From NCBI GenBank assembly GCA_028909515.1, contig GCA_028909515.1_4811.1: 64,000 nucleotides of DNA. The stretch is one strand, 5' to 3'. This DNA is from a phage. Below the pieces are notes generated by a model. The model was not told the DNA's origin. It did not search any database and saw only the letters and a program-made list of their open reading frames with translations. This document shows positions 42,346 to 61,683 of this stretch, piece by piece; within the stretch, counting starts at the first letter, position 1; each line of letters starts with the position of its first letter. The position numbers and the translations under genes are program-made.

Positions 42346-42993
42346 TTATCCTGTGGCCTGCATATTGCGTACATACTTCTGCTCTAATGAATAGATGAAG
42401 TCGGCGACAGTTAATCCCTTCGTGTGCCATTCATACATGGTGAAGCCTGTATTCAGGAAATAGCCGCGCACCTTGTCCATCGCTTCAGCTTCCTCCATTG
42501 AAGCCATCAGCGCGGCGACGTTGTCATAAGAAGGCACAAATCCCTTCTTGCGTAGCGCATTGCGCAAATCTTTAGTTCTGAATCCAATCTTGCAAGGGTC
42601 ATCACGGCCCGTGGATGATGCAACCTTCGGTAGCGCAAGGAACTCTTTAAGGAACATTGCAATGTTCAAGTCTCCTGCGTCATCAAGCTTCTGGATTCGG
42701 TTGCGACCGCGACCCTTGAATTCACTTGCACGAGGGTGAGCGCCAAAACAGTGCGCCCCTTCCAGTTTAGGGTCGATGATCATTACATCTTTACCAATGC
42801 GCAGCTCTACGTAGTAAAGATAAGACTCATCGACAAGCTTTGTGCGCTTGCAAGTGATTGAGTCCTTATCATAACCAAAGCCACGCAACACGGTTGAAAT
42901 CATCCGGTTCATTTCTTCGCCGTGAACGTCACTCTCTTTGTTCAGTTCACCAAGATTTTGAAAGAATTTAGCGATGTTGATTGCTTTATTCAT
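42346..42993 (-). CDS. Hypothetical early protein
   Basis: 215 aa ORF directly downstream of the helicase. Confidence 0.45.
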   Translation of the reverse strand: MNKAINIAKFFQNLGELNKESDVHGEEMNRMISTVLRGFGYDKDSITCKRTKLVDESYLYYVELRIGKDVMIIDPKLEGAHCFGAHPRASEFKGRGRNRIQKLDDAGDLNIAMFLKEFLALPKVASSTGRDDPCKIGFRTKDLRNALRKKGFVPSYDNVAALMASMEEAEAMDKVRGYFLNTGFTMYEWHTKGLTVADFIYSLEQKYVRNMQATG

Positions 42994-44663
42994 CAGAATT
43001 CATCCTTATCTCTTCCCAAAGAACGTTTACGCTCAATAACCTTCTTCAAGAATTCAATATCTTCAGGGTCAGACTCATCGCGGATGAGATACGCTAAGAT
43101 GGTCATCAAATCAGAAATGTATTCCCCTGATTCATTCTTAATCAGCGGCGTAAAGTAACCGCGCTGGTTGCGATAGGTTGCAGGCTCAAAACCAAGCTTC
43201 GACATGTGCGGCGCAAGGGTACGAGAGAAAGGCGACTTGCCGCACTTCGCTCTGAATCCCATAGCAATAGCACCACTGGTGATGTGCCAGCGTCCGCTGT
43301 GATGTCGGTCATAAGGCGCGGTGATGACGACTTCAACAAGGTCGTTGTCAACCATCTCATCACGGATAACGCCGCGCGCACGTTCCATTTCGTTCTTGCT
43401 GAACTCAGTAAGCATGCGAGATGTTTCACCAACAAACGCATTGTAACCTGCTTCGCCGTGCTTCTCCATCCACGCAGCACACTCAGCCATCAACTGCCAA
43501 ACGTCTTCTTTCAAAGTGGAAAGGTCAGCTTGGAAATCTTTCGACCAGTTCGGTTGCCCGTCCTTGTCAGCGAGTTGGCCAACAAAGATAGGATACACAC
43601 GACGGTTGCCCGTGTCATCGCGCTGCATACCTGCGTATTCATTGCCGTCCATGATAGCAATCCACTGGCGTGGTTTAACCTGCGTATCTTCAAATTTGAA
43701 GTCCAGGTCATCTTCTGTCTTAGTCAGGAATGCTTTCATGTTTTCGATGTCGGCCTTTTTAAAGCCTGTCATCTCGCCGACGTTCGCGATAATCGAGCGA
43801 CCCGTAATAGCTCGCAAGAACGGGTTGAAGTTTTGCGCGGCTAAGTTTAACGGAATCGGTGTTGCGTGGCGGTCGTTCATAATAGCTTCGCAAAGCAGCT
43901 TGCTAAAATAACTCTTCCCTGCGTTCTGGCCGCCGATGAGCGCGATGGAGATTGGCGCTTGACAGCCAGGGTTGGTCAGGCGGTTATAGAGCGATAGCCA
44001 AAAATACACACCGATTTGTCGGTTTAACTCTGTATCGAATGGTCGGAATAGCTCGATAAGGTATTTCTCGATGCGCGCAGTACCGTCCCATTCAGGCAGC
44101 TTCTTGTAGAAGAAGTCCATCAGGTCGTCGCGCTGATAACGCATGGCCCATTCCTTATAGGATTGAGCGACCTGACGTGAGTTTGGGTTGGACAATCCTG
44201 CTGCGTCGACAGCGGCAACTATCTCTGTGACTTCCAAAGTACGGTCGGTGAATGTTTCGCCGCGATGGTCGACTAAGCGCCCACGAAAAGTATCTTTGTG
44301 AGGGAATGGAACAACGCCACTTCCCTTATCAAACAACGCGTCGAAAACCGCATAACGGTTCATGTCACTCGTCCTGTCTGCCTGTAGAACGAAGTCATCT
44401 TTGGTAGGCTTGTAGTGAGGGAACTTGATTACCTGAAGTGAGGCGAGCAAGCGTGCTCTTTCAACCAAGTCTTCTTCACCGTAGCATTCCATGCGCTCTG
44501 AATCTTTTTCAACGGCTTTATGTTGAAGGCTGATTTTAGCTCTGGTGCCTTGCTGCTCTGCCGCCTGCATTTCTTCCGAAACGCCTGCATCTTGAATTTC
44601 GTCAAAGATTGCACCAAATTCATCACCTGTATCCTCTGGAAGATTGTCATTATTAATTGACAT
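42993..44663 (-). CDS. P-loop NTPase, replicative helicase (SF3 / primase-associated type)
   Basis: 556 aa. Walker A IALIGGQNAGKSYF. Sits downstream of the primase-like gene. Family assignment is inferred. Confidence 0.55.
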   Translation of the reverse strand: MSINNDNLPEDTGDEFGAIFDEIQDAGVSEEMQAAEQQGTRAKISLQHKAVEKDSERMECYGEEDLVERARLLASLQVIKFPHYKPTKDDFVLQADRTSDMNRYAVFDALFDKGSGVVPFPHKDTFRGRLVDHRGETFTDRTLEVTEIVAAVDAAGLSNPNSRQVAQSYKEWAMRYQRDDLMDFFYKKLPEWDGTARIEKYLIELFRPFDTELNRQIGVYFWLSLYNRLTNPGCQAPISIALIGGQNAGKSYFSKLLCEAIMNDRHATPIPLNLAAQNFNPFLRAITGRSIIANVGEMTGFKKADIENMKAFLTKTEDDLDFKFEDTQVKPRQWIAIMDGNEYAGMQRDDTGNRRVYPIFVGQLADKDGQPNWSKDFQADLSTLKEDVWQLMAECAAWMEKHGEAGYNAFVGETSRMLTEFSKNEMERARGVIRDEMVDNDLVEVVITAPYDRHHSGRWHITSGAIAMGFRAKCGKSPFSRTLAPHMSKLGFEPATYRNQRGYFTPLIKNESGEYISDLMTILAYLIRDESDPEDIEFLKKVIERKRSLGRDKDEF

Positions 44664-45972: not shown

Positions 45973-47055
45973 CTATTTTATGCCACCTGCACGACGATTT
46001 ATCATGTCAAGTTGATTCTCAATATAAGGCATGACGATTGCTTCAACAAAAGCGGTCCAACCTTTCTTGCCTTCCCCTTTACGGTGACAGTCGTGGGCGC
46101 AACCGAACACAAATTCATGTTCTGCACCAGGGATAGGGCCGCGAAAGTAAGCGCCATACGGGTCGCCGTTGGTGTGTTCTTCACCCCAAGGACAGATTAT
46201 GCGGCACTTGCCTGACATGTTCTCGATGACGTCACCATCAGACCCTTCACCCATCTTGCTGCGCGCTAGAATCTGCTGGGCTATTTTATACCAAACAGCA
46301 TCATACTTGTATTCATCGACGTCAATTTGAATCTCACGCTTTTGCGGCATGACGACGTGAAAGCCAAATGCCTGACAAATGTCTTCGATGGTGTAGCGCA
46401 ATGAGTAGTCTGCATGGACAAGTCGGCAGCGGAACGGGTCGCCGTTCTCATCGACATATTTATAGGGGCCGTCATGAGTCACACGCTTGTTGTTGATGCA
46501 CCCAGGAACACGGCCCACGCGCGTTACGTCTTTAATCGTGTTGTCGCCGCCCTTCTTGAGTACCATGTTAACGAAAGACCCAAGGAACGCTTTGAACTGA
46601 ATAAGATGGTCAATCGGTTCTTTAAAGAAGTACCAAAGCTGGTGGTTGTTCGGTGAAGTCTCGACGATGACAGTCGGCTTCAGTCGCTCAAAAAAGAATT
46701 CCAAATCTAAATCGCCTTTGGACCCTTTACCGTGACCGATGTCGTCGACCATCATCGCCATGCCGTGACCAAAGGCCGACTCTGTACGCCAGTATCGCAT
46801 CTCACCCGTCTTTGGGTTGGGAGACTTACGCATTGAACTGATGCAAGCATAGCCGTTTTGGTGCTGCATGAGCGGCTTTCCCAACTTCCAAGGCTTAGGC
46901 CAGAAGCTGCTGTTAATCTTCTTGCCGCGCTCGTCAGTCTGCACCGTTGCTTCAGGCGCAAACACCGTCATGACGCGCTCATCTTCTGGAATGCCTCTTT
47001 GGAGTTCTGTTAAAAACTCTTCGATTATTTTTGCTTCTTCTCTTAAACTAGCCAT
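45973..47055 (-). CDS. Primase-polymerase-like protein (archaeo-eukaryotic primase type, putative)
   Basis: 360 aa. Motifs MVDDIGHG and NHQLWYF, C-terminal Cys/His cluster CPWGEEH...CAHDCH. Lies upstream of the helicase. Family is inferred. Confidence 0.45.
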   Translation of the reverse strand: MASLREEAKIIEEFLTELQRGIPEDERVMTVFAPEATVQTDERGKKINSSFWPKPWKLGKPLMQHQNGYACISSMRKSPNPKTGEMRYWRTESAFGHGMAMMVDDIGHGKGSKGDLDLEFFFERLKPTVIVETSPNNHQLWYFFKEPIDHLIQFKAFLGSFVNMVLKKGGDNTIKDVTRVGRVPGCINNKRVTHDGPYKYVDENGDPFRCRLVHADYSLRYTIEDICQAFGFHVVMPQKREIQIDVDEYKYDAVWYKIAQQILARSKMGEGSDGDVIENMSGKCRIICPWGEEHTNGDPYGAYFRGPIPGAEHEFVFGCAHDCHRKGEGKKGWTAFVEAIVMPYIENQLDMINRRAGGIK

Positions 47056-49857: not shown

Positions 49858-50853
49858 ATGAACATGAAACAACCTGTAATGATTATCGGCGGCGGACTGG
49901 CAGGACTTATCACCGCGTGTCACTTCCCGAACTCTATTGTGTACGAAGCAGGGGAACGAGCGCAACAGCACAAGGCACTGCTACGCTTTCGCGGCGAAGA
50001 AGTAAGCCGTATTACCGGAATCCCTTTTAAGGCCGTGACAGTTGACAAGGCTGTGTATTTTCGCGGTAACTACTACCACGACCATTGCCCAATCAACCTT
50101 GCCAATATGTATTCCATGAAGGTCACCAATCAGTTTGGCAGTCGTTCAATCATGAAGCTTAAAACTGCAACGCGTTATATTGCGCCTGATGACTTTTATG
50201 ATCAGCTTGTCGACAAACTGGGTGACCGCATATTCTTTAATACTCCGGTTGATACTCTTTGCGGCTATAGCGAGACGCCAATCATCAACACGTCGCCGCT
50301 GCCAGTAATGATGAAGCTTGCTGGGATTGATCAAAAGCTTGATTTCTCATTTGATAAAGCAAACATTCGCGTTTACCGCTTTAAGATTAAACGTAAGTGT
50401 GATTTGTATCAGACAATTTACTTCCCTGACTACTCCGTCAGAACTTACCGCGCATCAATTACTGGTGACACGCTTATCATTGAAACAATTCCTTTGGTCA
50501 GCGTGAGTGAAGCTGCAGTTGAAGCCGCTGGCGGCATCACCCGTTATCGCGACATGAAGCTGCGCGCGGAAGTGGACGAAGTTCTGACCGCTTTTGGTCT
50601 TTCATGGAATGACATCTCTTTGGAAGAAGTTGAAAAGGTTGACCAGAAGTATGGCAAGATTGTAGACATTCCGAAAGACTTGCGACACGCCTTACTGCTC
50701 CAGCTGACTATGGATTTGAACGTATTCAGTGTTGGCCGATTCGCTACATGGCGCAACATCTTGCTTGATGACGTAGCTCATGACCTTGTTGAAGTTGAAA
50801 AACTCATCAAAGCAAATAACTATCAAAAATTTGCTTATATTGCTAATAAATAA
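49858..50853 (+). CDS. FAD/NAD(P)-binding oxidoreductase-like protein
   Basis: 331 aa. N-terminal Rossmann motif VMIIGGGLAGL. Exact family not resolved. Confidence 0.5.
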   Translation: MNMKQPVMIIGGGLAGLITACHFPNSIVYEAGERAQQHKALLRFRGEEVSRITGIPFKAVTVDKAVYFRGNYYHDHCPINLANMYSMKVTNQFGSRSIMKLKTATRYIAPDDFYDQLVDKLGDRIFFNTPVDTLCGYSETPIINTSPLPVMMKLAGIDQKLDFSFDKANIRVYRFKIKRKCDLYQTIYFPDYSVRTYRASITGDTLIIETIPLVSVSEAAVEAAGGITRYRDMKLRAEVDEVLTAFGLSWNDISLEEVEKVDQKYGKIVDIPKDLRHALLLQLTMDLNVFSVGRFATWRNILLDDVAHDLVEVEKLIKANNYQKFAYIANK

Positions 50854-51378: not shown

Positions 51379-52182
51379 ATGAAAGTTGAATTAATTCGAT
51401 ACACCCAAGATGCACTTGACCTTTTGCTGGAAACAAAGAACACGCGCATGACTGGTAAGCCAGTCTCTGAGATGACAGAATCAGAGAAGCAAGAGCACTG
51501 GCGATACATGCTTGACACAATCAAGTCGCCTTTTGATTTTGTGGACTATATCTTTGACATCACTGATGTATCAAAGAATATGACTCATCAGATGGTGCGC
51601 ACGCGCACAGGTGCATATCAAGAACGTACAAGCCGCGCTCAGGAATCTTCTGCTTTTGATGCGATTCGTCCTGCCAAATTTACTTACCCAGAGGATGATC
51701 CAAAGGGATGGACTCGTCATGACGAGAAGGCTGCTGAACTGGCAGAGAAATGGGATGATGCGATGGCCACGATTGACGCCCTCTACCAAGAGCTTCGCGC
51801 GGCTGGCGCAGAGATTCAAGATGCACGTGCCGTGTTGCCTTCTAATATGCAAACGCATATCATGGCAAAGTTCAACTTGCGAACGCTGCAACAGATGGCG
51901 TCAAACCGCTTGTGCACGCGCACCCAAGGCGAGTATCAGGAAGTTTTCCGTGCGATGGTAGCTGAAGTCCTCAAGGTGCATCCGTGGGCTAATCCTTTAC
52001 TACAGCCGCAATGCATCGGCATGGGCAAGTGCGCATTCCCTCGCCATGGCAAGGCCCATTGCCCTTGGTATCGTGATTGGATGGATACCACTGCACAGCA
52101 AGAAGAATTACGCATCCAGTTTTGGAATGCAATGCCAATCACCAATAATCCGGTTGCCAAAGATGGAGTATCAAAAGGATGA
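51379..52182 (+). CDS. ThyX-like protein (flavin-dependent thymidylate synthase fold) with altered signature motif
   Basis: 267 aa. C-terminal ARAVLPSNMQTHIMAKFNLRTLQQMASNRLC resembles ThyX. The canonical RHR...S motif position reads VRTRTGAYQERTS. Confidence 0.55.
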   Translation: MKVELIRYTQDALDLLLETKNTRMTGKPVSEMTESEKQEHWRYMLDTIKSPFDFVDYIFDITDVSKNMTHQMVRTRTGAYQERTSRAQESSAFDAIRPAKFTYPEDDPKGWTRHDEKAAELAEKWDDAMATIDALYQELRAAGAEIQDARAVLPSNMQTHIMAKFNLRTLQQMASNRLCTRTQGEYQEVFRAMVAEVLKVHPWANPLLQPQCIGMGKCAFPRHGKAHCPWYRDWMDTTAQQEELRIQFWNAMPITNNPVAKDGVSKG

Positions 52183-53116: not shown

Positions 53117-53800
53117 ATGAAAAAAGTAATTGTTGTAACAGGTTCCAATTCCGGTCTTGGTAAATCTATTTTTGACACCCTTGGCGCTTACGGTCATAAC
53201 GTGCTTGGCATCGATTCAGCATACGGATATGACGTCCGCGATGCTAAACAGATGAAAGAAATTTTAAGCCCATATGATGTTGAAGGCTTGATCAACTGTG
53301 CTGGTGTCAACTCTAACAACTGGTTCGAAGATGTTAACTACGAAGAGTTCAATCGCGTTATGCACACCAACGCCTTCTCTTTCGTCAACACGACTCAGGC
53401 CGCGCTGAAAAGTCTTATCGACAACAAAGGCTTTGTGATCAACATCGTTTCCAACGCTGCGCATATTCCTATGACGTCCAGCTTGTGTTATAATGCATCC
53501 AAGGCTGCTGCGCTTATGATCAGCAAGCAGATGGCTCACGAACTTACGCCTAAGTACGGCATCACGGTATTCTCTATTAGTCCTAACAAGTTGCGCGGCA
53601 CTGGCATGTCTAAACAGATTGAAGATGCCGTTTGTGCGACTCGCGGCTGGACTCCTGAATACGCTGCTGAATACCAGAAAAAGGCATTGATGAATGGATT
53701 GGAGACTGAGCCGCAAGTAATTGCCGACTTCATTCGCCATATCTTAATTACGGGCGCATGGCGCTTTATGTCTGGCACTGATATTCCATTTGGTAAATAA
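53117..53800 (+). CDS. Short-chain dehydrogenase/reductase (SDR) family oxidoreductase
   Basis: 227 aa. Motifs VIVVTGSNSGLGKS, NCAG and catalytic YNASK. Confidence 0.75.
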   Translation: MKKVIVVTGSNSGLGKSIFDTLGAYGHNVLGIDSAYGYDVRDAKQMKEILSPYDVEGLINCAGVNSNNWFEDVNYEEFNRVMHTNAFSFVNTTQAALKSLIDNKGFVINIVSNAAHIPMTSSLCYNASKAAALMISKQMAHELTPKYGITVFSISPNKLRGTGMSKQIEDAVCATRGWTPEYAAEYQKKALMNGLETEPQVIADFIRHILITGAWRFMSGTDIPFGK

Positions 53801-53896: not shown

Positions 53897-54448
53897 ATGC
53901 CACATTTTAAAATTGAACAAATCGCCCTGTCAATTCCAGATGCTCAGCGCGCACAGGATTTCTTGGCTAAAATCGGCCTGACGGAATGGTTCCATGATCA
54001 TGTTGTTGCTACTGGTCGCGTATTTGAAGCTGATGACTTTAAAGGTCGTCGCGACGATTGCACCAATGAAGCTGACTTGCGCTTCAACTATCAGGCTGGC
54101 AACGGTACTGATGGCGGCGCTGGTAAGCCTCTTGAGCTTGAAATACTTGACTACACAATGGGCTGCAACTGGATTAACGAAAACATCGAATATATCGATG
54201 CGCATGACAATCAGGTCAGCCACCTTGGCATGCATGTGACTGCCGCTGAACTTGCTGAATGGCGTAAGTTCTTTAGCGAAGAAGGCATTCAGGTTGCACA
54301 GGAAGTTGTAACTGACTCTCATACCAACCCGAACATTGCTGGTCAACGTCGTTACAACTATGTGATCTTTGATACGCGTGAAATCATCGGTGTTGATTTG
54401 AAGTTTATCGTGCGCTTGAATCAAGACGGTACTCCGTACACTGTATAA
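53897..54448 (+). CDS. Hypothetical protein, possibly glyoxalase/VOC-like
   Basis: 183 aa. N-terminal KIEQIALSIPDAQRAQDFLAKIGL pattern. Weak assignment. Confidence 0.35.
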   Translation: MPHFKIEQIALSIPDAQRAQDFLAKIGLTEWFHDHVVATGRVFEADDFKGRRDDCTNEADLRFNYQAGNGTDGGAGKPLELEILDYTMGCNWINENIEYIDAHDNQVSHLGMHVTAAELAEWRKFFSEEGIQVAQEVVTDSHTNPNIAGQRRYNYVIFDTREIIGVDLKFIVRLNQDGTPYTV

Positions 54449-54464
54449 CGAATCGTGAATCTGT

Positions 54465-54489
54465 GGCCGTCCTAATGGGCGGCCTTTTT
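54465..54489 (+). terminator. Rho-independent terminator
   Basis: GGCCGTCC, 4 nt loop, GGGCGGCC (one G-U pair), then TTTTT. Confidence 0.6.
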
Positions 54490-54502
54490 GTAGGAGGCTA
54501 AT

Positions 54503-55045
54503 GTGTTATTTCTCCCTTATGACTTCGAAACAACCGGATTGACCGTGCACCCGAAAGCGCCGCTTGGGATGCAGCCGCGCCCTATTGAATTTGCAGGTCT
54601 GTTGACAGACGGCAAAGAGATTCTTGAAACGTTTGAATTCATAATTAATCCTGAAATCGTGATTGAAGAAATTATCACAAAGATTACCGGATTAACAAAT
54701 GAAGACCTTGAGTGCAATCCACCATTCATCAATTTCGTCCCGCAGCTAAAAGAAATCTTCAAGAAGACTGATGCAACTATCGCGCACAACCATGCGTTCG
54801 ATAAAAACATTCTTGATTATGCACTACAGCGCGAAGGACTTACGCTTGATGATGTTAATTTTCCAGAAATAAACATATGTACAGTTGAGCAAACCTTGCC
54901 TATTTTTGGCCGAAGAGTTAAGCTTCAAGAGCTGTATGAATTATATTTCGGAAAATATGAACAGAAGCACCGTGCATTAGACGACGTAATATTACTGCAC
55001 AAAGTCTGCCAACAAATTGGCGTATATGACATCTGGAGTAAATAA
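54503..55045 (+). CDS. DnaQ-like 3'-5' proofreading exonuclease
   Basis: 180 aa. GTG start with AGGAGG site. Exo motifs LPYDFETTGL, AHNHAFDKNIL and HRALDDV. Stop overlaps the polymerase start. Confidence 0.8.
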   Translation: MLFLPYDFETTGLTVHPKAPLGMQPRPIEFAGLLTDGKEILETFEFIINPEIVIEEIITKITGLTNEDLECNPPFINFVPQLKEIFKKTDATIAHNHAFDKNILDYALQREGLTLDDVNFPEINICTVEQTLPIFGRRVKLQELYELYFGKYEQKHRALDDVILLHKVCQQIGVYDIWSK

Positions 55046-57942
55046 TGTTTCCACAATTGAGAGTTCGCAGCGGTTACACGTTCAAAGAAGTTTATGGACG
55101 GCATCCTGAAATTATAGCACGGCTCAAAGAGTTGGGCTGCGAAGTCGCGGCATTAGTTGATAACAACACATGGGGTCACGTCCGCTGGGAAAAGGAATGC
55201 CAGAAAAATGATATTAAGCCTATGTTTGGGATGGAGATTCCAATCATCGACCCTGATGCGGACCCTAAAAAGGGATTCAAACCGAAGGCTTGGATATTGG
55301 CCCTTGACTTAAAATCTTTTTACAACGCTACGACACTTGCAACGCAGCGTGGTGGCCTTACCCGTGCAGAGTTCGGTGCGCTTGATGGCGTCGTTAAATT
55401 CTGTGGCGGTGCCGTTGAGCTGCTGCGGCCAGAGGACTACGATTATATAGACGTCAACCCATCATCGTTCCTTTTGGCTAAGCGCCAGGTGTTGGCTCAC
55501 CGCAGCAACGGAAGGCCGCTGGTTTTAACCGGATACAACCACATGCCTTCACCTAAGCACGTTGACTTTGCTTATGCTTGGGAAGTGCGCGACACGGTCA
55601 AGCCGCACTGCATCGTTGACGCGGAAGACTTGCGCAAACAGCTTAAAGGCATCTTGACTGAAGATGAGCTCAATCAGGCAACGGCCAATGCTGTTGACAT
55701 AGCAAACGGCATAGTCGGACTTGACCTGAAATTGCGTAAGGCACCGATTATTCACCTTGCTGGTGACATGGTAAAGCTTGCTCGCGAGGGGATGGAGTAT
55801 CGTCTCAAAGCAGGTCACATCAAAGAGTGGACTCAGGAATATGAGGACCGCTTCAACGAAGAAATTCACCAGATTCAGCTGAAAGATTTCGACTCATACT
55901 TTCTGGTAGTAGCGGACCTTGTACGATTCGCAAAAACAAAAATGCTCGTCGGGCCTGCTCGCGGCTCATCGGCTGGTTCACTTGTTTGCTATTGCCTCGG
56001 CATCACGGAAGTGGACCCAATCCCGTATAAGCTGCTGTTTGCCCGATTCATCGACGTAAGCCGCGCCGACCTTCCTGACATCGACATCGACTTTGAAGAT
56101 ACCAAACGCTACATGGTGTTTGATTATCTTAAAGAGAAATATGGCGAAATGAACGTTGCAAAGCTTGGCAACATCAACACGCTTAAGGCCAACTCAGTAA
56201 TGGCGCAGGTTGGTAAGAAGTTCAACATTGGATACCACGAAACGGCCAACATTAAAAACGCACTGCTTGAATACTCATCCGGTGACGCCCGTTATGGTCA
56301 CGGCCTGGAGGATACCTTTGCAACAACGACCACGGGCCAAGAGTTTGTGGCGAAATATCCTGACGCCGCGCGTTGCATGGGTGACCTTGAGATTCACCCG
56401 TCTCACACAGGTGTTCACGCAGCGGGAATCATTGTGTGTAATGACCCAATCTCTGATTACTGTACTGTAACTGCAGAAGGGATTGCGCAAATCGATAAGC
56501 CTGACAGCGAATACCTAAACCTTTTGAAGCTTGATGCGCTGGGCCTTCGTACTCTCGGAATCATTTCTGATACTGGCGTGATAGATGCTGAAACGCTGTA
56601 CGGAATCAAGCTTGATGACCAAAGCGTCCTTGACATCCTTAACGAAAACAAGATGTCAGGCATCTTCCAGTTTGAAGGCGACGCTGTACGCTCAGTAACC
56701 AACTTTGTGCACGTTGATAACTTTAACAAAATCGATAACCTGACAGCACTTGGCCGACCTGGCCCGTTGTCGTCCGGTATGGCCCAGAAATACATTGAAC
56801 GCGCGGCAGGACGTGCGCCGATTGAGTACGACGTGCCGCAGCTTGAGCCGTACTTAAAAGAGACTTACGGCGTGTTTCTTTACCAAGAGCAAATCATGGC
56901 CGTGGTTAAAGAGATTGGTTCATTTGACTGGGCGAAAACATCCGCTGTACGTAAGGCGATGTCAGGTCGTAAGGGTGAGGAATACTTTAACAAGCTTGGC
57001 GAAGACTTCGTTGCAGGAGCAATAAATAACGGCGTACCGGAAGCGGATGCAAGAAAGCTTTGGCAAGCGATGGCGACGTTCGGGTCATGGGGCTTTAACA
57101 AGTCACACTCCGTATCATACGCGGTCGTGACCTACTGGACCTTGTGGCTTAAGCGACACTACCCGTTGGAATTTGCCGCTGCTTGCTTACGCGCTGCTAA
57201 GGACGAAGACCAGACGATTGCGATATTACGTGAACTTGCGAAGGAAGGCGTGGATTATGTGCCAATCGACCCTGATCACTCTTCAATGAACTGGACCATC
57301 GCTAACGGAAAGCTAATCGGCGGCATCATGAACGCAAAAGGATATGGCATGGTGAAGGCAATGAAGTATATCGAAGCACGTGAAGCCGGAACCTTAACGC
57401 AAAAGCAAAAGGATGCATTGGCCAATGCTGAAGTCAAATACGGCGACCTTACAGAGATGCACACAAAGTTCGGATGGGCATATAATGACCCCTATCTGAT
57501 TGGCGTTACTTCCGGTGCTTCAATACGCCAGATGAAGGAAGTCGGCGATGACGAGCGTGCAATAGTGATCGGCAAGTTGACCAAGAAAGTGCTGGCTGAC
57601 GAGAACGAAGCGACACGCATCCGTAAACGTCTTGAGCGCGGCATTTATACAAAGCACGGCAAACTTAAAAAGGGTCTTCAAGCTGATGGCCGCTACGCAG
57701 AGTTTGACCAGTATGGAAACAAGCTTGAGACTCAGTTCATTGACCTTATGTGCAAGGACGATTCGACCGACTCGCCAATGCGCTTCAGGATTCGTCCAGA
57801 GAAGTTCCAGAAATACGGGAAATACATTGCAGAGAACGTCGGGAACGGCGCATTCTTCCTGATGAAAGGCCGCAAACTTGAAGGCATTGACATGTTCATC
57901 GTCGACGTTATCAAACAGGTGTATCCAGATGGCAACAAATAA
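55045..57942 (+). CDS. DNA polymerase III alpha-like (DnaE family) replicative polymerase
   Basis: 965 aa. Catalytic LPDIDIDFED and SYAVVTYWTLWLKRHYPLEFAAACL. N-terminus QLRVRSGYT sits where PHP domains carry a His-x-His metal site. Confidence 0.8.
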   Translation: MFPQLRVRSGYTFKEVYGRHPEIIARLKELGCEVAALVDNNTWGHVRWEKECQKNDIKPMFGMEIPIIDPDADPKKGFKPKAWILALDLKSFYNATTLATQRGGLTRAEFGALDGVVKFCGGAVELLRPEDYDYIDVNPSSFLLAKRQVLAHRSNGRPLVLTGYNHMPSPKHVDFAYAWEVRDTVKPHCIVDAEDLRKQLKGILTEDELNQATANAVDIANGIVGLDLKLRKAPIIHLAGDMVKLAREGMEYRLKAGHIKEWTQEYEDRFNEEIHQIQLKDFDSYFLVVADLVRFAKTKMLVGPARGSSAGSLVCYCLGITEVDPIPYKLLFARFIDVSRADLPDIDIDFEDTKRYMVFDYLKEKYGEMNVAKLGNINTLKANSVMAQVGKKFNIGYHETANIKNALLEYSSGDARYGHGLEDTFATTTTGQEFVAKYPDAARCMGDLEIHPSHTGVHAAGIIVCNDPISDYCTVTAEGIAQIDKPDSEYLNLLKLDALGLRTLGIISDTGVIDAETLYGIKLDDQSVLDILNENKMSGIFQFEGDAVRSVTNFVHVDNFNKIDNLTALGRPGPLSSGMAQKYIERAAGRAPIEYDVPQLEPYLKETYGVFLYQEQIMAVVKEIGSFDWAKTSAVRKAMSGRKGEEYFNKLGEDFVAGAINNGVPEADARKLWQAMATFGSWGFNKSHSVSYAVVTYWTLWLKRHYPLEFAAACLRAAKDEDQTIAILRELAKEGVDYVPIDPDHSSMNWTIANGKLIGGIMNAKGYGMVKAMKYIEAREAGTLTQKQKDALANAEVKYGDLTEMHTKFGWAYNDPYLIGVTSGASIRQMKEVGDDERAIVIGKLTKKVLADENEATRIRKRLERGIYTKHGKLKKGLQADGRYAEFDQYGNKLETQFIDLMCKDDSTDSPMRFRIRPEKFQKYGKYIAENVGNGAFFLMKGRKLEGIDMFIVDVIKQVYPDGNK

Positions 57943-58351
57943 CCGTGAACAGAAATACATATTCGTGCCTTTGAAGAAGCATTCAGAATCAATCTTGAAG
58001 CTTCAAAGAATCGAATCAATGACGGGTGATGGTGTGCCGGACGTAATCGGCACCAACCGGAAAGGGCGCGGCTTTTGGCTTGAAATGAAGTTCTTTGAAT
58101 CGTGGCCTGCAAGGGCCACCACTCTTCCTTTCAAGAGCGCATTTGAGAAAGGTCAACAAAGCTTTTTGACTTCTTGGAGTGATTGGAAATTCTCGTCATT
58201 CGTGTTGCTGAAGGTGGACTCTGAAAAGGCTTATTATTTAGTTCACCCTTCATTGCGATTAAAAGAATATACTAAGCATGAGATTCTGGCTATGGTCGCC
58301 GCGAGCGGGTCCATCCATCACATCATCAAGTATTTAGAGGAATTGTCATGA
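57929..58351 (+). CDS. VRR-NUC-like nuclease
   Basis: ATG MATNNREQ overlaps the polymerase 3' end. Motif GVPDVIGTNRKGRGFWLEMKF resembles a PD-(D/E)xK site. Confidence 0.5.
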   Translation: MATNNREQKYIFVPLKKHSESILKLQRIESMTGDGVPDVIGTNRKGRGFWLEMKFFESWPARATTLPFKSAFEKGQQSFLTSWSDWKFSSFVLLKVDSEKAYYLVHPSLRLKEYTKHEILAMVAASGSIHHIIKYLEELS

Positions 58352-60822: not shown

Positions 60823-61683
60823 ATGTCTAAGAAAGAAACCACCGAAGTTGCAGTGAAAAACACCCAGATGTCCGCTATGGCTGATTTTGTCGACATGACC
60901 GATTTTGGCGCTGGTTTTGAAGGTGCCGATGCCGATGCGTATGCCATTCCTTTTATCGTCGTACTGCAGAAGATGTCTCCTATGGTCGACGAAGATGATC
61001 CGAAACACGTTCCTGGCGCAAAAGCTGGCATGCTTTACAACACCGTTACTGGTGAGTTGTATGACGGCAAGAAAGGCGTGCAGATCATCCCTTGCGCATT
61101 CAAACGCACCTTCATTCTTTGGGGCGGTCGCGAGTCCGACGATAAAGGCTTTAAAGGTGAATTCACCAAAGAGCACGTTGATGCAGAAGTCGCGGCAGGC
61201 CGCGCTGTTGAGATCAACGGTAAGGTATTCGTGCCGGACGAAAACGGCAAGGTGCACGAGAAGAAATCTCCTTACTACGCAGATACACGCAACCACTTCG
61301 TAATTCTGTTGAACGAAGAAACTGGTGAATTTGGTAGCGCAATGCTGTCTCTGACTTCTTCCATGATCAAGCCGTCTCGCATGCTGATGACCGCCCTGCA
61401 GCAGAAGAAAGTTCAGACTCCGCAGGGTCTGAAAACGCCGCCGACCTTTATGAACATTGTTCGCATGGGTACTGCATCCCAGTCCAAAGACGGCAATACA
61501 TGGTCTGTTCTGAAGTTTGAGCTGGAAGGTCTGGTGCAGGACAAAGGTCTGTACGAAGTCGCCAAGGCATTCCACAACGACGTAGTTGGCGGTAACGTTA
61601 ACATCGACCGCAGCAAGCAGGAAGAAGCAAGCGGTGCCGCTGGTCCTGTCAATGAAACTCCGACCGACGCAGAAGAGTTTTAA
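60823..61683 (+). CDS. ssDNA-binding protein-like (acidic C-terminal tail ending in Phe)
   Basis: 286 aa. C-terminus ETPTDAEEF resembles SSB interaction tails. No OB-fold verified. Confidence 0.4.
   Translation: MSKKETTEVAVKNTQMSAMADFVDMTDFGAGFEGADADAYAIPFIVVLQKMSPMVDEDDPKHVPGAKAGMLYNTVTGELYDGKKGVQIIPCAFKRTFILWGGRESDDKGFKGEFTKEHVDAEVAAGRAVEINGKVFVPDENGKVHEKKSPYYADTRNHFVILLNEETGEFGSAMLSLTSSMIKPSRMLMTALQQKKVQTPQGLKTPPTFMNIVRMGTASQSKDGNTWSVLKFELEGLVQDKGLYEVAKAFHNDVVGGNVNIDRSKQEEASGAAGPVNETPTDAEEF

What the first reader, a model, noticed from the sequence alone, without database searches (positions are those of the whole stretch)
54503..57942. DnaE-type polymerase with a degenerate PHP motif coupled to a separate DnaQ-like exonuclease
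Where PHP domains normally carry a His-x-His metal site, the polymerase N-terminus reads QLRVRSGYT. A complete DnaQ-like exonuclease is encoded immediately upstream and overlaps the polymerase start by one base. A phage-encoded two-subunit Pol III-like core is uncommon.
Basis: partly seen in the sequence, partly recalled or inferred. Interest (0 to 1): 0.45.

Follow-up and report, generated by a model that had tools for sequence, protein, structure and literature searches.

The report
Phage Pol III-like polymerase plus exonuclease
An E. coli phage of the genus Wifcevirus carries its own bacterial-type replicative DNA polymerase whose built-in PHP proofreading site is dead, with a separate proofreading exonuclease gene just upstream; the pair is real but ordinary and already annotated in public genomes.

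Summary
ORF 54503-55045 encodes a 180-aa DEDDh (DnaQ-like) exonuclease. ORF 55045-57942 encodes a 965-aa DnaE-type polymerase. The two overlap by one base (TAATG).

The PHP metal site is gone. The nine ligand positions read R R E N E (K/G) G H P, against canonical H H D H E H C/H D/N H. E. coli's own DnaE reads R H D F D H G D R.

The window is a Wifcevirus, 98.9% identical to phage ManiWeber_Bas99. Phage Mansfield's 2019 GenBank record already labels the same two genes "DNA polymerase III epsilon" and "alpha".

The arrangement is clade-wide:
- In 87 related viral contigs with 32-100% identical Pol, none keeps His-x-His.
- 85 of those 87 have an upstream, same-strand DnaQ-like gene with an intact catalytic pentad.
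- Six other phage DnaE lineages keep HHDHEHCDH and have no nearby exonuclease.

This is the "PHP or DnaQ" rule already described for bacteria.

There are mild differences from E. coli. The exonuclease lacks epsilon's C-terminal alpha-binding tail. The polymerase lacks the tau-binding domain and any clamp-binding motif. No clamp or clamp loader was found in the genome.

Verdict: real, correctly interpreted, low novelty.

The parts
54465..54489 (+). Terminator-like hairpin (8-bp stem, 7 G-C pairs) followed by a T-run, just upstream of the exonuclease gene
   Evidence: scan; sequence. The equivalent site is annotated as a terminator in phage Mansfield. Terminator-like hits overall were not enriched over shuffles, so this is a consensus match only.
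54492..54497 (+). Shine-Dalgarno AGGAGG, 5 nt upstream of the GTG start of the exonuclease
   Evidence: An RBS is annotated at the same place in Mansfield.
54503..55045 (+). DEDDh (DnaQ-like) 3'-5' exonuclease, 180 aa. Catalytic residues D7, E9 (Exo I), D100 (Exo II), H156, D161 (Exo III-epsilon). No C-terminal tail.
   Evidence: Pfam RNase_T 9.6e-22. phrog_192 'DNA polymerase exonuclease subunit' 2.3e-37. Best PDB match is the T. maritima PolC exonuclease domain 2p1j. 24% identity to E. coli epsilon. The pentad is conserved in 86 of 86 orthologues.
55035..55038 (+). GGAG ribosome-binding site for the polymerase, inside the 3' end of the exonuclease gene. Together with the TAATG overlap at 55043-55047 it implies translational coupling.
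   Evidence: Mansfield annotates an RBS at the equivalent position. The same one-base junction is seen in Pbunavirus DRL-P1, ORF76/ORF77.
55045..55764 (+). PHP domain of the polymerase (aa 1-240). The barrel fold is kept but the metal site is lost: positions R6 R8 E15 N40 E64 (G77/K81) G122 H166 P168.
   Evidence: Pfam PHP is only marginal (26.7 bits against a cut-off of 26.4). hhalign to E. coli PHP. AF2 model with pLDDT above 90 in this region. Structural match to E. coli PHP 4gx8/4gx9.
55765..57249 (+). Polymerase core (palm, thumb, fingers; aa 241-735) with catalytic D345, D347 and D497
   Evidence: Pfam DNA_pol3_alpha 3e-63 and finger domain 1e-37. The three Asp are invariant in 40 diverse homologues. 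Aligned to E. coli DnaE 241-857. Foldseek TM 0.74 to Mtb DnaE1 7pu7.
57250..57549 (+). Region corresponding to the DnaE beta-binding/HhH domain (aa 736-835). No recognisable clamp-binding motif.
   Evidence: Aligned to E. coli up to residue 857. Motif scan found no Qxx[LM]xF or QLxLF. The domain label is inferred from position only.
57550..57924 (+). C-terminal OB-fold domain (aa 836-960) with a lineage-specific disordered insert (aa 863-896). The protein ends here, so there is no tau-binding C-terminal domain.
   Evidence: AF2 secondary structure and pLDDT. OB-fold matches to RPA, Stn1 and OBody. Insert seen in the family alignment.

Best explanation
The two genes encode the phage's own replicative polymerase core, a minimal alpha-epsilon type C-family replicase.

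The 965-aa protein is a DnaE-type polymerase with an intact polymerase active site. Its PHP domain survives only as a structural module, because the trinuclear metal site is replaced largely by Arg and small residues, as in E. coli DnaE.

Proofreading is supplied in trans by the 180-aa DEDDh exonuclease. That gene is transcribed in the same operon and translationally coupled through the TAATG overlap and an internal GGAG site, which should favour similar amounts of the two proteins.

Shown here: the gene structures, the catalytic residues, loss of the PHP ligands, the fold, clade-wide synteny, and the contrast with phage DnaEs that keep an intact PHP.

Inferred: that the two proteins form a stable complex, that the exonuclease edits the polymerase's errors, and that the enzyme works without a dedicated sliding clamp.
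For: - Gene structure and overlap.
- Family assignments: Pfam and PHROG. The Pol passes the NCBIfam TIGR00594 C-family superfamily cut-off (475 against 434 bits).
- Polymerase Asp triad invariant in 40 diverse homologues.
- AF2 model with pLDDT 90 and pTM 0.86, matching Mtb, Taq and E. coli DnaE at TM about 0.7.
- PHP nonad RRENE(K/G)GHP by hhalign. A MAFFT alignment of the comparison polymerases returns the published RHDFDHGDR for E. coli (PMC3666897).
- R6 and R8 invariant in the family.
- 85 of 87 related loci have an upstream same-strand exonuclease, and all 86 exonucleases found keep D-E-D-H-D.
- Exonuclease and Pol identity correlate across loci, r = 0.84.
- Six phage DnaE lineages with HHDHEHCDH lack a nearby DnaQ-like ORF.
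- The bacterial 'either PHP or DnaQ' rule is described in PMC3919608 and PMC12926913.
- It is the only DNA polymerase annotated in the near-identical Bas99 genome.
Against: - The exonuclease has no counterpart of epsilon's 57-residue C-terminal alpha-binding segment. The median extension beyond the catalytic domain is 0 aa across 86 orthologues (PMC2528190). The known E. coli docking mode therefore cannot apply, and binding is unproven.
- The exonuclease reaches no NCBIfam dnaQ cut-off.
- Salmonella phage SSU5 has a degenerate PHP and no exonuclease within 5 kb, so the coupling is not absolute.
- No biochemical data exist for any member of this clade in the searchable literature.
Confidence: 0.8

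Rival explanations
1. The exonuclease is not a polymerase subunit. It is a free-standing DEDDh nuclease that merely shares an operon with the polymerase. It might act in repair or recombination, degrade host nucleic acid, or act transiently at the fork like mycobacterial DnaQ, which does not bind DnaE1 stably.
For: - No epsilon-type C-terminal tether and no clamp-binding motif.
- Below every NCBIfam dnaQ threshold. The best hits are generic DEDD exonuclease, PolC exonuclease and DinG-type domains.
- There is a precedent for a non-binding DnaQ in mycobacteria (PMC12926913; PMC10634781 abstract).
Against: - Near-universal adjacency over 32-100% Pol identity, often with overlapping stop and start codons.
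- Co-variation with the Pol, r = 0.84.
- A clean complementarity with PHP status across phage DnaE lineages.
- A polymerase with neither an active PHP nor an exonuclease would have no proofreader at all.
Confidence: 0.12
2. The PHP domain is not merely structural. It keeps some other catalytic or regulatory role with non-canonical ligands, for example the pyrophosphatase activity reported for the E. coli PHP domain, or it forms the docking platform that positions the exonuclease.
For: - Many PHP residues around the former metal site are strongly conserved in the clade: E64, D39, N165, P168, R6 and R8.
- Pyrophosphatase activity has been claimed for E. coli PHP (PMC4822814 abstract).
- The E. 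coli PHP domain is the epsilon-binding site (PMC3919608).
Against: - Arg replacement of metal ligands is the typical signature of inactivated PHP domains (PMC3666897).
- No canonical His position holds His.
- Positions 3, 4 and 6 vary freely within the clade.
- This reading is compatible with the main explanation rather than exclusive of it.
Confidence: 0.05
3. The polymerase is an accessory or error-prone enzyme of the DnaE2 type, and bulk phage replication uses host Pol III.
For: - The Pol does not reach any DnaE1 equivalog cut-off, and it also matches the error-prone DnaE2 subfamily model below that model's cut-off (331 bits against 939).
- It lacks the clamp- and tau-binding elements of replicative DnaE1.
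Against: - It sits in a full replication module: RepB-like primase, VapE/SF3 helicase, Dda and SNF2 helicases, ligase and ThyX.
- It is paired with an intact proofreader.
- It is conserved across hundreds of lytic phages.
- No ImuA/ImuB-type partners are annotated in the Bas99 or Mansfield records.
Confidence: 0.03

Closest known systems
E. coli DNA polymerase III core (alpha = DnaE, epsilon = DnaQ, theta)
   Same: - A C-family polymerase whose PHP domain has lost its metal ligands, with Arg at position 1.
- Proofreading delegated to a separate DEDDh exonuclease.
- Same overall fold, TM about 0.65-0.72.
   Different: - The phage PHP has no canonical His position occupied by His, whereas E. coli keeps H12 and H83.
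- The exonuclease is 180 aa and lacks the 57-residue alpha-binding tail and the clamp-binding motif. No theta is annotated.
- The Pol lacks the tau-binding C-terminal domain and any clamp-binding motif.
- In the phage the genes are adjacent and overlapping; in E. coli dnaE and dnaQ lie about 30 kb apart.
- The phage proteins fall below the NCBIfam equivalog cut-offs.
DnaE plus upstream exonuclease of Pbunavirus (PB1-like Pseudomonas phages) and relatives (Pantoea phage Kyle, Serratia phage MTx, Xanthomonas phage Carpasina, Burkholderia phage BcepF1)
   Same: - Orthologous module, with 58-69% Pol identity.
- Same gene order: ThyX, PNK-phosphatase, exonuclease, Pol, small ORF, SNF2 helicase.
- Same one-base overlap in DRL-P1.
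- Same R-x-R motif.
   Different: - Nothing substantive differs.
- Wifcevirus has H rather than D at PHP position 8, and a 34-aa insert in the OB domain.
- The exonuclease is often left as 'hypothetical' in those records.
Actinophage and other phage 'DnaE-like DNA polymerase III alpha' (PBI1, Turuncu, Sollertia, Essence, Planchet, PcaP2EGY)
   Same: Phage-encoded C-family polymerases, 23-38% identical over the core.
   Different: - They are longer, 1043-1284 aa.
- They keep the complete HHDHEHCDH PHP site.
- They have no DnaQ-like ORF within 5 kb, so they presumably proofread with PHP, like Mtb DnaE1.
PolC of Firmicutes and exonuclease-fused DnaE1 of Bacteroidetes
   Same: A DEDDh exonuclease of the same subfamily works with a C-family polymerase. 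The phage exonuclease's best PDB match is a PolC exonuclease domain (2p1j).
   Different: In PolC and Bacteroidetes DnaE1 the exonuclease is part of the polymerase chain, inserted in PHP or fused to the DnaE1 chain (PMC3919608). Here it is a separate polypeptide.

Membership tests
C-family (Pol III alpha / DnaE-type) DNA polymerase | Pol-beta-like palm with three catalytic Asp (E. coli D401, D403, D555) | tested here: met
   D345, D347 and D497 are invariant in 40 homologues and aligned to E. coli.
C-family (Pol III alpha / DnaE-type) DNA polymerase | Curated sequence models | tested here: met
   Pfam DNA_pol3_alpha 214 bits and finger domain 129.5 bits, both above cut-off. NCBIfam TIGR00594 superfamily 475 against 434 bits.
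C-family (Pol III alpha / DnaE-type) DNA polymerase | Overall fold: PHP, palm, thumb, fingers, OB | tested here: met
   AF2 model pLDDT 90. Foldseek E 4e-51 and TM 0.74 to Mtb DnaE1, with Taq and E. coli close behind.
Bacterial replicative DnaE1 (orthologue of E. coli alpha) | Equivalog-level sequence score | tested here: not met
   The best equivalog, NF004226, scores 496 bits against a cut-off of 1002.
Bacterial replicative DnaE1 (orthologue of E. coli alpha) | Beta-clamp binding motif (QxxLF type) and tau-binding C-terminal domain | tested here: not met
   No motif in the Pol. The protein ends after the OB domain. No HHH_6 or C-terminal-domain Pfam hit.
Active PHP proofreading exonuclease (Mtb DnaE1 / Taq type) | Nine metal ligands HHDHEH[C/H]DH | tested here: not met
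   The positions read RRENE(K/G)GHP. A MAFFT alignment of the comparison polymerases returns full motifs for six control phage Pols and the published pattern for E. coli.
DEDDh exonuclease (DnaQ-like, Pfam RNase_T) | Exo I DxE, Exo II D, Exo III-epsilon Hx4D | tested here: met
   D7, E9, D100, H156 and D161 are present. RNase_T scores 78.7 bits against a cut-off of 24. The pentad is conserved in 86 of 86 orthologues.
Pol III epsilon subunit (DnaQ orthologue) | C-terminal segment that binds the alpha PHP domain; curated dnaQ models | tested here: not met
   There is no tail beyond the catalytic domain. TIGR00573 scores 37 against 71.5 bits and TIGR01406 scores 43.8 against 222.7 bits.
Pol III epsilon subunit (DnaQ orthologue) | Stable physical complex with the polymerase and editing of its errors | not testable with these tools
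   Only genomic coupling could be shown. The structure tool returns no inter-chain confidence.
Phage families phrog_405 (DNA polymerase) and phrog_192 (DNA polymerase exonuclease subunit) | Profile match | tested here: met
   E-values 1.1e-270 and 2.3e-37.

The most novel reading that the evidence does not exclude
The clade represents a distinct, minimal C-family replicase. A tail-less DEDDh exonuclease docks on the polymerase through an interface unrelated to E. coli's epsilon tether. The polymerase, which lacks clamp- and tau-binding elements in a genome with no clamp or clamp loader found, obtains processivity from the phage's SF3 (VapE-like) helicase and an SSB-like protein with an acidic ...DAEEF tail (60823-61683). 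Such a stripped-down replisome could contribute to the unusually short infection cycle reported for Wifcevirus, 3-5 min from adsorption to progeny release (PMC11990801).
Probability: 0.3. Interest if true: 0.5.

Novelty: already known. Interest (0 to 1): 0.2.

Why it matters
It matters little as a discovery. The genes are annotated as Pol III epsilon and alpha in public phage records. An inactive PHP compensated by DnaQ is textbook for E. coli and has been documented across bacteria.

Two modest points do have value:

1. **The "PHP or DnaQ" rule extends to phages.** Phage C-family polymerases either keep a perfect HHDHEHCDH site and have no neighbouring exonuclease, or lose it and carry an adjacent DEDDh gene. 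This can be used to correct annotations. Many records leave the exonuclease as "hypothetical", and the Bas99 record starts it at an internal ATG that removes the Exo I motif.

2. **The pair may be a useful model enzyme.** The tail-less exonuclease and the polymerase lacking clamp- and tau-binding elements form a compact two-gene C-family replicase from an easily grown E. coli phage. That could make it a convenient system, or a biotechnological enzyme, if it proves processive on its own.

Tried and rejected
1. **phmmer against PDB.** It aligned only aa 240-798, and plain hmmsearch aligned only the first 72 PHP residues. The full PHP alignment needed hhalign.

2. **Modelling the exonuclease-polymerase complex as a linker-fused chain.** MAFFT misplaced most exonuclease homologues onto the polymerase columns (A2). 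A paired set was prepared. The attempt was abandoned because the structure tool returns no PAE, interface scores or coordinates, so nothing about the interface could be read from it.

3. **Search for a sliding clamp or clamp loader.**
   - Pfam and PHROG scans of 18 ORFs in the replication module found none. The only 'clamp loader' hit was a weak P-loop match inside the Dda helicase.
   - The whole-genome annotations of Bas99 and Mansfield list none.
   - The acidic 286-aa ORF was modelled and searched. It is not clamp-like but OB/SSB-like.
   - Two basic unknowns, of 215 and 281 aa, were judged unlikely to be clamps from their pI alone and were not modelled.

4. **Promoter scan.** Hits were not above the shuffled background.

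5. **Literature searches for work on phage DnaE PHP status.** Nothing specific was found.
Full report
**What is in the sequence**

ORF 54503-55045 has a GTG start and encodes 180 aa. ORF 55045-57942 has an ATG start and encodes 965 aa.

The TAA stop of the first ORF (55043-55045) and the ATG of the second (55045-55047) share one base. A GGAG site lies 6 nt upstream of that ATG, inside the first gene. Upstream of the first gene there is a G+C-rich hairpin with a T-run (54465-54489), followed directly by AGGAGG (54492-54497).

**Where the window comes from**

The window is a Wifcevirus, a group of roughly 68-kb E. coli myoviruses. The region is 98.9% identical to Escherichia phage ManiWeber_Bas99 and 94-96% identical to WFC, WFH, FEC19, ECML-117 and Mansfield.

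The Mansfield record (MK903282) annotates the same 543-nt and 2898-nt genes as "DNA polymerase III epsilon" and "DNA polymerase III alpha". It marks the same terminator, ribosome-binding sites and one-base overlap. PHROGs names the two families "DNA polymerase exonuclease subunit" (phrog_192) and "DNA polymerase" (phrog_405). The pairing is therefore already in public annotation.

**The exonuclease**

The protein matches Pfam RNase_T (9.6e-22) over aa 6-165. It aligns with the PolC-type exonuclease domain of Thermotoga maritima (2p1j) and with E. coli epsilon at 24% identity.

All five DEDDh residues are present: D7, E9, D100, H156 and D161.

The protein ends immediately after the Exo III helix. 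E. coli epsilon carries 57 further C-terminal residues that tether it to the alpha PHP domain (PMC2528190). Across 86 orthologues from related viral contigs, the median extension beyond the window protein's C-terminus is 0 residues and the maximum is 26.

The protein reaches none of NCBIfam's dnaQ cut-offs. It works like an epsilon, but it is not an orthologue of epsilon.

**The polymerase**

Pfam finds the Pol III alpha core (3e-63) and the finger domain (1e-37). The PHP match is only marginal, at 26.7 bits against a cut-off of 26.4. NCBIfam places the protein in the C-family superfamily (TIGR00594, 475 against 434 bits) but in no DnaE equivalog.

The catalytic aspartates D345, D347 and D497 are invariant in 40 homologues down to 29% identity.

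An AlphaFold2 model has pLDDT 90 and pTM 0.86. It superposes on M. tuberculosis DnaE1, Thermus aquaticus and E. coli Pol III alpha with TM about 0.65-0.74. Its N-terminal domain also matches the isolated E. coli PHP domain.

The C-terminal 125 residues form an OB fold, and the chain ends there. There is no tau-binding C-terminal domain. A motif scan found no QxxLF-type clamp-binding motif in either protein.

**The PHP metal site**

Barros et al. (PMC3666897, Table 1) define nine ligand positions:

| Protein | Nine positions |
|---|---|
| Consensus | H H D/H H E H C/H D/N H |
| E. coli DnaE | R10 H12 D19 F44 D69 H83 G134 D201 R203 |
| Window polymerase | R6 R8 E15 N40 E64 (G77 or K81) G122 H166 P168 |

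A profile of 102 family members aligned to E. coli residues 1-290 with hhalign at probability 96-98%. That alignment gave the window row above.

The predicted strands of the barrel place these positions at or next to strand ends, as expected. None of the five canonical His positions (1, 2, 4, 6, 9) holds His, although H166 occupies the D/N position. Only E64 is canonical and conserved.

R6 is in 105 and R8 in 104 (one K) of the 105 family members that cover the N-terminus. Substitution by Arg is the commonest replacement in inactivated PHP domains (PMC3666897).

One nuance remains: the host's own DnaE reads HLRVHSDYS, so it is already degenerate at the first His.

**Is the coupling real?**

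A degenerate-pattern scan of IMG/VR returned 92 related loci with 32-100% Pol identity.
- Of the 87 that include the Pol N-terminus, none has His-x-His. Most have R/R, K/R or K/K.
- 85 of the 87 have a DnaQ-like ORF upstream on the same strand. About half of these overlap the Pol start or lie within 20 nt of it.
- The two exceptions are a contig with no upstream DNA and one unexplained locus.
- All 86 exonucleases found keep the D-E-D-H-D pentad.
- Pairwise identities of exonuclease and Pol N-terminal region correlate at r = 0.84. The two genes are inherited as one module.

As a contrast set, seven more distant phage DnaE genes were taken from GenBank:
- Six keep the full HHDHEHCDH motif and have no DnaQ-like ORF within 5 kb. 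These are Mycobacterium phages PBI1 and Essence, Gordonia phage Turuncu, Streptomyces phage Sollertia, Enterococcus phage Planchet and Pectobacterium phage PcaP2EGY.
- Salmonella phage SSU5 is an exception, with a degenerate site and no neighbouring exonuclease.
- The same alignment returns the published pattern for E. coli.

Among 150 representatives at 50% identity, 12 longer proteins, of about 990-1110 aa, show the full motif (a thirteenth has the allowed Asn at position 8), while the roughly 930-960-aa clade does not.

This is the phage counterpart of a rule described for bacteria. Replicative C-family polymerases have either an active PHP or a DnaQ proofreader. All alpha-, beta- and gamma-proteobacterial DnaE1 proteins have an inactivated PHP (PMC3919608; PMC12926913).

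**Clamp and clamp loader**

The window covers all but about 4.3 kb of the genome, and the missing part encodes tail and lysis genes in Bas99.

Pfam and PHROG scans of 18 ORFs in the replication module found:
- a RepB-like primase (45973-47055),
- a VapE/SF3-type helicase-primase (42993-44663),
- a Dda-like helicase,
- an SNF2/UvsW-like helicase,
- ThyX, a PNK-type phosphatase, a MazG-like protein and a ligase.

No clamp or clamp loader was found. The Bas99 and Mansfield annotations list none either.

**Mechanism**

The best-supported reading, at confidence about 0.8, is a two-subunit alpha-epsilon-type replicase core. The polymerase synthesises DNA. Its PHP domain is a structural remnant. The co-translated DEDDh exonuclease proofreads.

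How the exonuclease is held on the polymerase is unknown, because it lacks the E. coli tether. The main rival is that it acts without stable binding, as mycobacterial DnaQ does.

How processivity is achieved is also unknown. The enzyme may use the host clamp through an unrecognised motif, or it may rely on the phage helicase and SSB.

**How common, and how new**

1377 of 50,697 phage records (2.7%) hold a DnaE homologue. 376 hold this full-length type, mostly Pseudomonas Pbunavirus. Yutin et al. call family C the rarest polymerase family in Caudoviricetes, found in 947 of 18,382 genomes (PMC11348598). "Uncommon" is therefore fair, but the class is well populated and well annotated.

The window protein is 99.9% identical to that of phage FEC19. 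In Pbunavirus DRL-P1 the same one-base junction is visible, with the exonuclease left as "hypothetical" (PMC8481504).

No paper in the searchable library discusses the PHP state of phage DnaE proteins. That detail and the dichotomy shown here may be undescribed, but they are a direct extension of known biology.

**Verdict**

The finding is real and correctly read. It is ordinary and already annotated, with low interest.

Noticed in passing
[not shown]
   Followed up: partly
window 54503-54568; L001 20163-20639: The closest GenBank record (Bas99, PQ850618) starts the exonuclease at an internal ATG, giving 158 aa and removing the Exo I residues D7 and E9. Mansfield and most metagenomic gene calls use the 180-aa form with the GTG start and AGGAGG site.
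   Followed up: yes
window 57631-57732 (Pol aa 863-896): A 34-residue insert in the C-terminal OB domain is present in the window but absent from most relatives. It is predicted to be disordered, with pLDDT below 50 at aa 870-885.
   Followed up: no
window 55540-55542 (Pol H166): PHP ligand position 8 is His in the window's polymerase but Asp in 106 of 114 relatives. The rest of the local motif, T-x-Y-N-x-M-P, is invariant.
   Followed up: no
window 57878-58351 (+): A small ORF (phrog_2165, labelled 'DNA helicase') overlaps the 3' end of the polymerase gene. Its start differs between records: Bas99 overlaps the Pol by 14 nt, while Mansfield starts later. It is called a 'recombination protein' in Pbunavirus DRL-P1.
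   Followed up: no
P0115 and other polymerase homologues of 1190-1260 aa: A sizeable fraction of polymerase homologues are about 250 aa longer and match the query in two to four stretches. P0115 carries a Pfam intein-splicing domain, so inteins appear to be frequent in this polymerase clade.
   Followed up: no
MH051335.1 (phage Ro157lw), hit H11: In this close relative the polymerase region matches in two pieces, carries about 125 extra bases, and is annotated as two separate 'alpha subunit' CDS. This could be an insertion, a frameshift or an assembly error.
   Followed up: no
window 53117-53800 and 51379-52182; L097 3145-3840 and 7804-8904: A FabG-like short-chain dehydrogenase and a ThyX thymidylate synthase flank the DnaE gene both here and in the distant Mycobacterium phage PBI1. 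The window also has a glyoxalase-like ORF (53897-54448) and a 331-aa ORF (49858-50853) that Mansfield annotates as UDP-galactopyranose-mutase-like. The role of these enzymes in a replication module is unexplained.
   Followed up: no
L098 (Salmonella phage SSU5) 4077-7595: The SSU5 DnaE has a fully degenerate PHP site (MRESKCDPY) but no DnaQ-like ORF within 5 kb. It is an exception to the PHP-or-exonuclease pattern.
   Followed up: partly
window 42993-44663 (-) and 45973-47055 (-): The bacterial-type polymerase is combined with a non-bacterial-type helicase and primase: a VapE/SF3-type helicase-primase and an RSF1010 RepB-like primase. This makes a mosaic replisome.
   Followed up: no
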